NCBI GenBank assembly: GCA_949358305.1
Contig: OX442314.1
Span: 12,462,001 to 12,526,000 of the forward strand
Direction: 5' to 3'
Origin: Strigamia acuminata
Taxonomy: Eukaryota
DNA length: 64,000 nucleotides
A program made the translations under genes and the position numbers. Below are positions 44,401 to 47,400 of this stretch, piece by piece (the first letter of the stretch is position 1; each line of letters starts with the position of its first letter). The notes under the pieces are model-generated. The model ran no database searches. It saw only the letters and a list, made by a program, of their open reading frames with translations, and was not told the origin of the DNA.

Positions 44401-47400
44401 TGAGCCGGTGTCACATTCACGAATATGTGCTCTATATGATGAATTGGCAGCCTTGAGGATTAAGCCGGGCGAAACAATACGTCTTTTCGCGCAACGGATC
44501 CGTGTGGTGCAGAAGAAGTTGACAGAGCTGGGTGAAGTGATCTCAGAGATTTTTATTTGTTACCAGTTGATTCGAAACTTACCGGCAGAGTTTCAGCCTG
44601 TTGTATTGTCCATCCATAGGGGGCCGAAAGATAAGTTTACCCTGAATGAGGCTGAAAAGGAGCTCATTTCGGAAGAGGGCAGATTAAAGCAGCTTCAATC
44701 CGACAATGGGTCGTTTAATTCTGCTGGAGTGTTTGCCGCTAGTGAGGATAGAAATGTGTATCTTCAGGACGAGTTTGGGTATGACTACGTTGCGGTTCCC
44801 GATTACTCACAGATGCCTGTGCTACAGTCACAGCGACCGGGAGATGTGGTGAGGAACGATGAAAGTCTTTTTGGTCAGGGACAAGTAGCCATGGGAGGTG
44901 GACGTTTCTATAGGAATGTAGCTCGAGGAGGGACGGTTATTACATCGAATCAACGCGGTGTACAGCGATTACCTCGGACAATTTACCGAAGAAGACCGGG
45001 AATGGTTGGATCTTCATTTGGCGGCCGGGGGACAGTCGATGGGCGACCTACATTTGGGGGGCCGTGTTATCGATGCCAGAAGCCGGGCCATATGGCAAGG
45101 GATTGTACGGAGGTGGTTTATGTGTATGAGGATGAGGTGGTTCCATCTACAGCCGTTGAAATCCTGGAGGAGAAGAAGACGACTCCCATGTTGTCCCTCG
45201 CTGAGGATCCTGGTTGTGCTGAATATGGACTTTTGACTGAAGCCCTTAGCGGGGGGTTTGAGACTAGATCTGACGATTGGGTTTTCGATACTGGAGCTAC
45301 GAGTCATATTTGTCGGAATCGGAATTTGTTTACTAAGTTTATTGAGACAAAGGGGGACAGTATTAAATCTGCAGGGAGTCAACAGGAGACGCCCATAATG
45401 GGGATGGGTTCGACTGCGTTTTTGGACCGTTCTTCTGGTGGCCGACTGAATCGGGTCACTTTTAATCGGGTTATCTATGCACCTGGAATCCGAAGAAACC
45501 TTGTATCTGGCCCGCGTTTGGATGACTTGGGTTGCCATTTCGTGGGGACTGGTGGCAAGGTTTATATTTTTACCCCGGATTGGTCTAGAGTCATTATGGT
45601 TGGAGTTAAGGACCAAATTGGTGGATTGTACCATATTGTTCCGAACGTTCGAGAAGACCCGGGATTGAATGACACTCAGATTCCGGATCTAAATGAGAGA
45701 ATACGCAATTATGCTTTGGTTACGAGTGAGGATAAATTGGAAAGTGATCGGTTGATGGACTTGAAGATTGATCATGTGGAGGTTCCTACCCGTCATATTA
45801 AGGATGACCCGGATCAGGTTTTGCTGTGGCACCTTCGATACTGTCATTATAATCAGGACGACGTTAAAAGGACATCAAAGATTGATTGTGTCATTGGGAT
45901 GCCATTGTTGGCCGGCAAGCCGGATCGCTGTGATGCCTGTTCCTTGGCGAAAGCGAGGTCGAGATCATATAAATCCATACCGGGACCGAGATCGAGTAAG
46001 CCACTTCAGCTTGTACACACGGATGTATGTGGACCCTTGAGTATACCATCAAGAACTGGATTTATCTATTTCGTGACTTTTACGGATGATTTTTCGCGTT
46101 ACCGGACGGTGATAGGAATGAAGAGTAAGAGCGAGGTAGTTGATCATTTTAAGGTTTATCAGGCAAGGATGGAACGTCAAACTGGATATAAAATTATGGC
46201 TGTGAGGAGTGACAATGGCCTCGAATACTGTAACCGGAAGTTTTCTGCGATTTGCGAATCCCAGGGTATTCGACACGAGAGGACTAACATTTATACGCCT
46301 CAAATGAATGGGGTGGCTGAGAGATTTAATCTTACCCTGATGAATGGAATTCGATGTTGTTTGGACTATGCTGGCTTGGAGAATGATTTCTGGGAAGAGG
46401 CAGCCCACACTGTGTGCTATACCATAAATAGAATATCTCGAAGAGACAGTGATAAGACCCCGTATGAATTAATTTATGGTACAAAGCCTAATGTGAAACA
46501 TCTTAGAACTTTTGGGTGCTTAGTTTATGCGAAGATTGCAGCAAAGACGTCCAAATTGGACAACCGAGCTAAAGCTGGAATTATGGTTGGCTACTCGTCA
46601 AAAACGATTGGATATCGTGTTTTCATACCGGGGGAAAGAGTTATTTGGGACACATCCAATGTGGTGTTCGACGAACAGAAGATCGGCAGTGTTTGCGTGC
46701 TGGACCCGGAGATTACTCTGACCCCGAAGACTGTTGATTTTGTTGAGGAACCAGAGGACGATTATTATGACGAGGACCCGATTTTGGGCTTGAATGGACC
46801 GGATGGAGAATTGGACAAACATGAGGATGAGGTCAAAGCTCCGAAACTGGATGAACATGAGGAAAGATTAATGGACAAGGTTGAAACTCAGGAAATCCCG
46901 GGGATTGAATCGCCACTTAGACCCTTGAGGGTTTTGGTCCACCCTCTGACGCCCGTGGTGAGCAGTGGAGGACGTGAAGTGGAGGATCTCCCATTAATTG
47001 GGGCCGTGAGATCACCGGTGGTCTCTGGATCCTCGAAGATGACTTCAGTTAGAGAAACAAGAAGTAACGCTAGCAAGATGAGATCGTGCCGTGATGTAGA
47101 GTGGTTTAGAACGGCCGTCCCGAGAAAGGATTTGAGGGGATATAATATCTATTTTGGACTCTCCCAGAATTCTAGACAGTGTAAATCGGAGAATGATGTG
47201 ATTGCTTTCTGCCGGGATTCCGGCCTTATGTACGATGCATCTTTATTTGTATACTCGACACTCAACCCGTTTACGGGCTGGCTGAACTCAGTGCCCGGTG
47301 AATGCGTGGAAACCGTGGAATTGACCCGCTCCGACTCTTGGGATGATTTGGCTTGGGGTGGCGAGGAATTATTCACCATGGAGGCTGGGGTCCCTGGATC

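What the first reader, a model, noticed from the sequence alone, without database searches (positions are those of the whole stretch)
47087..47275. Methyl-CpG-binding-domain-like insert in the copia polyprotein, with altered reading residues
Seen: between integrase and RT lies [57 protein letters not shown], which follows the MBD pattern W-x-R-x-x-V-x-R-K...(D)-I/V-Y-Y/F...R/K-S-x-x-E/D-V/L...F-x-F/Y. Established (from memory): copia elements that captured an MBD have been described in a centipede and in spiders, so the class itself is not new. By my manual alignment to MeCP2, the first mCpG-contacting Arg (R111 equivalent, in PRK) and the Tyr are retained, while the Asp is Asn and the second Arg (R133 equivalent) is Lys. 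Inference: an integrase-tethered targeting module whose methyl or sequence specificity may have shifted, in an element that still looks active.
Basis: partly seen in the sequence, partly recalled or inferred. Interest (0 to 1): 0.78.

Follow-up and report, generated by a model that had tools for sequence, protein, structure and literature searches.

The report
Mobile retrotransposon with eroded methylation reader
A recently inserted arthropod jumping gene carries a captured DNA-methylation-reading domain in which two of the four key reading residues have changed, so it likely no longer picks out methylated DNA well; the captured domain is already known, but this worn variant is undescribed in the papers searched.

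Summary
An intact copia element (42961-49226; identical LTRs, 5-bp target duplication) carries an MBD-homologous module between integrase and RT. Pfam misses it, but a profile built without it scores it 44.7 bits (shuffles at most 6). Its predicted fold ranks MBDs first, and RT and integrase trees place the element among MBD-bearing copias (CopiaMBD, de Mendoza 2019). R111 and Y123 equivalents are kept; D121 is Asn and R133 is Lys. Two more conserved basic residues are gone, and it has fewer basic residues than any of 77 canonical copia MBDs. The empty site occurs in three sequencing runs, so this insertion in a TRIM9 intron is very recent. The Asn+Lys pair arose separately in a multicopy Trichonephila family (AU p=0.0003). 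Best reading: fold kept, methyl-CpG selectivity largely lost, likely a weak methylation-independent tether on integrase; binding is untested. A weakened methyl reader or a decaying vestige remain possible. Verdict: new variant of a known kind. The scan holds no earlier copia-MBD note, but has MBD notes on a Kolobok and a Helitron in other genomes.

The parts
42956..42960 (.). 5-bp target-site duplication, left copy
   Evidence: same 5 bases at 49227-49231; empty-site joint skips 6271 = element + 5
42961..43199 (+). 5' LTR, 239 bp, TG...CA
   Evidence: 100% identical to the 3' LTR
43201..43212 (+). putative primer-binding site directly after the 5' LTR
   Evidence: sequence; the likeness to the copia initiator-tRNA half-molecule site is recalled, not tested
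44108..48937 (+). intact gag-pol ORF, 1609 aa, copia order gag-PR-INT-RT-RH
45995..46681 (+). integrase core (aa 630-731) and SH3-like domain (aa 790-858)
   Evidence: Pfam rve 1.8e-14, SH3_retrovirus 7.2e-23
46688..47071 (+). acidic, proline-rich linker between integrase and the MBD-like module
   Evidence: sequence; the whole INT-RT linker is 241 aa, against 129-267 in the 14 other MBD-bearing relatives and mostly 60-130 in the rest
47072..47278 (+). divergent MBD-homologous module, aa 989-1057
   Evidence: leave-out profile 44.7 bits; model pLDDT 85.7; fold searches rank MBDs first
47123..47125 (+). R1006, first arginine finger (MeCP2 R111 equivalent), kept
47144..47146 (+). N1013 at the position of MeCP2 D121
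47150..47152 (+). Y1015 (MeCP2 Y123 equivalent), kept
47183..47185 (+). K1026 at the position of MeCP2 R133 / MBD2 R188
47483..48175 (+). reverse transcriptase (RVT_2, aa 1126-1356)
   Evidence: Pfam 2.1e-58
48988..49226 (+). 3' LTR
49227..49231 (.). target-site duplication, right copy
42894..50501 (+). host TRIM9 intron that holds the element, 67 bases after the donor, same strand
   Evidence: tblastn exons 42754-42903 and 50503-50931; spliced joint 42893-50502 GT..AG in one contig of run X6

Best explanation
This is a real MBD-derived module in a recently inserted copia element of the CopiaMBD group; it keeps the predicted MBD fold but has likely lost most methyl-CpG selectivity and likely acts as a weak, methylation-independent chromatin tether on the integrase tail. 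Shown: homology, position in the polyprotein, descent, the residue changes and the recent insertion. Inferred: (1) the module stays on integrase after protease processing, since it ends about 35 residues before the conserved stretch that opens RT; (2) Lys in place of the second arginine finger weakens mCG binding, and Asn in place of the Asp no longer pins the first finger by a salt bridge; (3) what remains is low-affinity backbone or partner binding, as in BAZ2 TAM or SETDB MBDs; (4) the family moves without strict methyl targeting.
For: The core is kept while the DNA face changed. Of 22 columns conserved in at least 60% of 79 canonical copia MBDs, the window has the majority residue at 11 and a related aromatic or aliphatic one at several more; it differs at D121, R133 and two further arginine columns (aa 1011, 1024). 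It has 7 Lys+Arg against 8-15 in 77 of 77 canonical domains. Its MBD is more diverged than its integrase predicts, even without the four reader columns (residual -0.112; canonical SD 0.025, lowest -0.055). In MBD2 the same Arg-to-Lys change lowers mCG affinity about 8-fold, and BAZ2A TAM, which has Lys there, binds backbone without methyl preference (PMC8600091). D121 pins R111 (PMC5446194). Lys stands at this place in 6 of 10 BAZ2 rows of Table S3 of PMC6673714. The model is confident (pLDDT 85.7). The family is mobile with this state: identical LTRs, empty site in 3 of 3 runs that cover it, and only 2 listed differences in the module, both synonymous. Host DNA in the window shows no CpG depletion (o/e 1.09 outside the element; 1.0-1.48 in 7 of 7 host coding stretches).
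Against: No binding data exist for this domain. R111 and Y123 are kept, and an 8-fold loss could be offset by avidity in an integrase multimer. No measurement of Asp-to-Asn at this position was found. The insertion lies in an intron of a spliced gene, the pattern reported for spider CopiaMBDs, though n=1. Net charge is not unusual (16 of 77 canonical domains are as low). The element's ORF is mildly short of CpG (230 vs 258+/-7), and 4 of 57 host 1-kb bins have o/e under 0.7. CpG o/e missed methylation in other arthropods (PMC8821070). Two synonymous differences cannot show selection, so a vestige is not excluded. The fold scores are weak on their own (best Foldseek E 0.09, best VIA Z 5.2), and the model used an alignment of MBD relatives.
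Confidence: 0.45

Rival explanations
1. Weakened but working methyl-CpG reader: the first arginine finger and the tyrosine, multiplied over an integrase multimer, still bias integration to methylated gene bodies or repeats.
For: R111 and Y123 equivalents kept. The single Arg-to-Lys change in MBD2 costs only about 8-fold. Intronic insertion in a spliced gene matches the Stegodyphus pattern. One Strigamia CopiaMBD row also has Lys there.
Against: The Asp and two more basic residues also changed. All three DAP-seq-tested CopiaMBDs have the full Arg-Asp-Tyr-Arg set and the long loop. Flank CpG density is ordinary (about 25% of pseudo-sites are as high). No CpG depletion in TRIM9 exons.
Confidence: 0.25
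2. Vestige: the domain no longer does anything useful and is drifting in a tolerant linker, with the core looking intact only because decay is incomplete.
For: Faster divergence than integrase. Both reader changes are reachable by single transitions from the codons seen (inference). Most copias move without any MBD.
Against: Core aromatic, Ser, Asp and Cys columns are kept on a long branch (end branch 0.6-0.77), with no deletion. The predicted fold is confident.
Confidence: 0.17
3. True specificity switch: Asn+Lys is an adaptive pair that reads another base context (for example a half site, TpG or another modification) and redirects integration.
For: The same pair occurs in an independent multicopy family (18 proteins, 92-100% alike; 3 of 3 looked up are Trichonephila clavipes). 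One clade with the window is rejected (p-AU 0.0003). Asp loss and second-Arg loss go together in about 3 of 3 independent pairs.
Against: The sign test cannot reach significance (p 0.25). Other lineages use other residues (Ser/Tyr, Ser/Tyr or Gln, Gly/Lys). The Trichonephila family also has a shorter loop and an uncertain first finger. Coupled loss is what relaxed selection on one surface would also give.
Confidence: 0.1
4. Chance resemblance in a low-complexity linker.
For: No direct Pfam or PDB sequence hit; no hit in the region-limited search; single-sequence fold pLDDT 45.
Against: Leave-out profile 44.7 vs at most 6.0 bits. Same position as in relatives, and RT and integrase trees group the element with them. 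The top 13 Foldseek and top 8 VIA rows are all MBDs.
Confidence: 0.02

Closest known systems
CopiaMBD retrotransposons of Strigamia and Stegodyphus (de Mendoza, Pflueger, Lister 2019; PMC6673714)
   Same: Copia element with an MBD in the pol ORF next to integrase. The 6-residue loop between first Arg and Asp matches the Stegodyphus rows of Table S3 by eye. Intronic insertion, as enriched in the spider.
   Different: Asp and second Arg both changed (0 of 22 CopiaMBD rows in Table S3 have both changed). No direct Pfam hit; 33% or less identity to any listed relative's MBD. The host is a non-insect arthropod whose window has no CpG depletion. The three tested domains were all canonical, long-loop Strigamia ones.
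Canonical readers MeCP2, MBD1, MBD2, MBD4
   Same: Fold and profile match; first arginine finger, tyrosine, serine and the aromatic core.
   Different: Asn for the Asp, Lys for the second finger, a loop three residues shorter, fewer basic residues.
Non-reading MBDs: BAZ2A/B TAM and SETDB1/2 MBD
   Same: MBD fold with altered fingers; Lys at the second finger as in BAZ2A (PMC8600091). The SETDB2 MBD bound to a protein partner is the top VIA row, tied with MBD4.
   Different: The first finger is still Arg; descent is from CopiaMBD, not from BAZ2 or SETDB; the BAZ-specific extra strands are not evident.
Trichonephila clavipes copia family with Asn+Lys (GenBank proteins such as GFY16976.1, GFY30700.1; annotated only as copia Pol)
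   Same: CopiaMBD descendant with the same two replacements, in many near-identical copies.
   Different: Separate origin; 27% identity to the window's module; shorter loop.
Integrase targeting modules: chromovirus chromodomains; Ty5 and Ty1 integrase tails (the latter two recalled, not from a call)
   Same: Small module on the integrase C-terminal side, proposed to steer insertion.
   Different: Different fold and ligand; targeting is shown for those and untested here.

Membership tests
CopiaMBD | LTR element with copia domain order | tested here: met
CopiaMBD | MBD-homologous domain in the same ORF, between integrase and RT | tested here: met
   leave-out profile 44.7 bits; the family profile hits MeCP2 and MBD1-4 at E 7.5e-6 to 1e-3
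CopiaMBD | Direct Pfam PF01429 hit (the paper's working criterion) | tested here: not met
   0 families for the segment; 11 of 13 relatives hit at E<=1
CopiaMBD | RT groups with MBD-bearing copias | tested here: met
   14 MBD-bearing rows against 35 others, 100/99; 27 against 8, 100/100; integrase 97/90
CopiaMBD | RT groups with the published Strigamia and Stegodyphus sequences themselves | not tested
CopiaMBD | Purifying selection on the MBD | tested here: inconclusive
   2 of 2 listed differences synonymous; core kept but divergence raised
CopiaMBD | Prefers methylated CpG-dense DNA; insertions biased to such DNA | not testable with these tools
   no binding or methylome data; one site with ordinary CpG density
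Canonical mCpG-reading MBD | First arginine finger (R111) and tyrosine (Y123) | tested here: met
   R1006, Y1015
Canonical mCpG-reading MBD | Aspartate that pins the first finger (D121) | tested here: not met
   N1013
Canonical mCpG-reading MBD | Second arginine finger (R133) | tested here: not met
   K1026
BAZ2 TAM-type MBD | Both fingers replaced by Lys | tested here: not met
   only the second is Lys (PMC8600091)
BAZ2 TAM-type MBD | Extra BAZ-specific strands forming a five-stranded sheet | tested here: inconclusive
   the 80-residue model shows two long strands, a helix and short bridges; nothing longer was folded

The most novel reading that the evidence does not exclude
Captured methyl-CpG readers in arthropod copias have been repurposed several times in parallel, twice by the same Asn+Lys pair in actively spreading families, into modules that steer integration by something other than methyl-CpG, in this case in a host that has lost or nearly lost CpG methylation. 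That would be a natural series in which a transposon retunes an epigenetic reader to follow its host's methylome.
Probability: 0.2. Interest if true: 0.72.

Novelty: new variant of a known kind. Interest (0 to 1): 0.42.

Why it matters
The 2019 paper argued that an MBD is an unstable cargo for a retrotransposon when host methylation is low or confined to gene bodies, and predicted loss of such elements. Here is a young, polymorphic, multicopy family that kept the fold but changed the reading face, plus at least three other lineages that did the same. It offers natural material to test whether the MBD steers integration and what happens to it when methylation reading is relaxed. The group is also far wider than published: 114 of 162 proteins examined have copia context, with named hosts Araneus and Trichonephila, although the paper's scan of Nephila clavipes reported none.

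Tried and rejected
Direct Pfam, PDB phmmer and region-limited homologue searches found nothing: too diverged, not absent. The single-sequence fold was uninformative. The ESM Atlas gave no answer. No host genome is held, so DNMT content, copy number and other insertion sites were not examined. The metagenome scan gave 57 pattern matches and 0 confirmed relatives. No RNA holder was listed; run X6 has only short diverged pieces on the element, which says nothing on expression. The host could not be placed below 'non-insect arthropod': TRIM9 best hit is a scorpion at 72%, and the tree is unresolved. The first RT tree put the element deepest among MBD copias; denser sampling moved it to the base of the spider-rich clade (83/89, 97/98), so 'deepest' was dropped. 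A flank CpG enrichment was not found. Depth ratios of element to flank (about 8, 10 and 4) are taken only as a sign of several copies, since contig depth is no copy number. One position (47512) in the synonymous tally belongs to diverged contigs; without it the near-identical copies give 10 synonymous and 3 replacement codons, from cut tables. No complex was predicted, since no protein partner is claimed.

Full report
1. Observation. The peptide is in frame in an intact 1609-aa copia ORF (44108-48937), at aa 994-1050, between integrase/SH3 and RT. The element spans 42961-49226, with identical 239-bp LTRs and a 5-bp target duplication. Direct searches with the segment fail: Pfam 0 families, PDB phmmer 0 hits, region-limited homologue search 0 of 4 candidates.

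2. It is an MBD homologue. Searching with aa 700-1300 gave 1733 proteins, of which 120 were listed. Fourteen of these carry an alignable module in the same linker. I aligned 13 with the window; 11 of the 13 hit Pfam MBD at E<=1. A profile of the 13 without the window scores aa 989-1057 at 44.7 bits, against at most 6.0 for 2000 shuffled linkers and 7.6 for any other frame of the window. The 14-row profile hits MeCP2 and MBD1-4 in the PDB at E 7.5e-6 to 1e-3. With this alignment AlphaFold gives pLDDT 85.7 (44.9 alone). The top 13 Foldseek rows and top 8 VIA rows are all MBDs, but the scores are weak (best E 0.09; best Z 5.2, rmsd 2.7, 62 aligned) and the model leans on the alignment.

3. Descent. 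RT trees group the element with every MBD-bearing copia tested, against MBD-less ones (100/99; 100/100); integrase agrees (97/90, bootstrap not settled). With denser sampling it lies at the base of a large clade that holds the spider-named elements (83/89 RT; 97/98 integrase), on a long branch. Fragments under 155 RT or 135 integrase residues were left out, as were most MBD-less rows. The published Strigamia and Stegodyphus RTs could not be included (cells cut).

4. Reading residues. R1006 and Y1015 match MeCP2 R111 and Y123; N1013 and K1026 stand for D121 and R133. A profile search found 480 clusters at E<=0.001, of which 150 were listed. Of 162 proteins examined, 114 have integrase or RT context and hold 118 domains; 80 of the 118 have the full Arg-Asp-Tyr/Phe-Arg set. 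This sample is biased towards the profile. Against 79 canonical proteins the window keeps the core columns but lacks two further arginines. It has 7 Lys+Arg against 8-15 in 77 of 77, though its net charge is within range (16 of 77 as low), and its MBD is more diverged than its integrase predicts. In MBD2, Arg-to-Lys at the second finger lowers mCG affinity about 8-fold; BAZ2A TAM, with Lys at both fingers, binds backbone regardless of methylation (PMC8600091, passages and section 8). D121 pins R111 (PMC5446194, passages; also PMC10325892 and bioRxiv 581934, passages; PMC8917248 is in-silico only).

5. The change recurs. Twenty-one domains in 18 proteins (92-100% alike) have Asn and Lys at the same two places; 3 of 3 looked up are Trichonephila clavipes. 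They nest among canonical elements, and one clade with the window is rejected (p-AU 0.0003). In that family the loop is shorter and the first finger uncertain. P0013 and P0033/P0039 lost both residues in other ways. Asp loss and second-Arg loss go together in about 3 of 3 independent pairs, too few for significance (p 0.25). In Table S3 of PMC6673714, 3 of 22 CopiaMBD rows have one of the two changed and none has both; the three tested domains are canonical.

6. Activity and site. Contigs of three runs (two studies) hold the empty site at about flank depth, so this insertion is polymorphic or private; the best holder may be the source sample. Element depth is several times flank depth, a sign of several near-identical copies but no count. 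In the module only two differences are listed, both synonymous, with 5 rows of the table not shown, so Asn+Lys is the state of the family and not a lesion of this copy. The element sits 67 bases into an intron of host TRIM9, whose spliced joint is seen in one contig of run X6. Flank CpG density is ordinary. The host is a non-insect arthropod, not placed further. Its DNA here shows no CpG depletion. Against over-reading: these are neural, muscle or lineage-specific genes, often unmethylated in arthropods (recalled); CpG o/e has missed methylation before (PMC8821070, passages); and the element's ORF is mildly CpG-poor.

7. Mechanism. Most likely (0.45) the module stays on the integrase tail, keeps its fold and has become a weak methylation-independent tether, by DNA backbone or a protein partner. 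Rivals: weakened methyl reader helped by avidity (0.25), decaying vestige (0.17), true new specificity (0.10), chance (0.02). Homology, descent, residues and recent insertion are shown; processing, ligand and targeting are inferred. Host MBD2/3 has repeatedly lost methyl binding in insects with little methylation (bioRxiv 2025.04.22.650097, abstract only), a parallel for host genes.

8. Known or new. It descends from CopiaMBD (PMC6673714: parts 1-4 of 7 of the text and Tables S1, S3, S8 read; supplementary figures not read, and they may bear on residue variation). It fails the direct Pfam criterion and two of four reader residues, so I file it as a variant, not as a proven methyl reader. 'CopiaMBD' occurs in one paper of the library. 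Searches listed no follow-up and no measurement of these replacements (20 of 300 listed), and a 2025 metazoan copia survey has no mention of MBD (PMC11889832, passages). Subscription papers were not searched. The scan's own notes hold MBDs in a Kolobok and a Helitron, unchecked, and nothing like this sequence.

9. Verdict. A real feature and a new variant of a known kind; interest 0.42. The repeated change of the reading face in spreading families is the part worth following.

Noticed in passing
window 12025-13173 (-), 13925-15055 (-), 15319-17046 (+): Three long single-frame BTB/POZ genes whose N-termini look like signal peptides (by eye); secreted-looking BTB proteins would be unusual. Two are tandem paralogues.
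   Followed up: no
window 26620-27963 (-): Leucine-rich-repeat gene nested on the opposite strand in the roughly 22-kb first intron of TRIM9.
   Followed up: no
window 324-1109 and 6043-6858 (-): Exons with an RIH domain, read as a ryanodine receptor, with short introns and CpG o/e 1.08-1.48.
   Followed up: partly
window 43249-43392: Six 18-bp tandem repeats, CpG-rich, in the element's 900-base leader.
   Followed up: no
window 47360-47600, runs X1-X3: A diverged relative (47 differences in 241 bases) sits at flank-level depth in all three runs; 23 of 29 listed changed codons are synonymous.
   Followed up: partly
P0013, P0033, P0039, P0372, P0341: Other CopiaMBD lineages with both the Asp and the second Arg replaced by other residues; P0013, P0033 and P0039 are full-length polyproteins.
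   Followed up: partly
P0250, P0257: Proteins of the Asn+Lys family with two or three copies of the module in one annotated chain, possibly nested insertions or annotation joins.
   Followed up: no
window 48976-48987: The purine run before the 3' LTR is short and ends 6 bases before the LTR.
   Followed up: no
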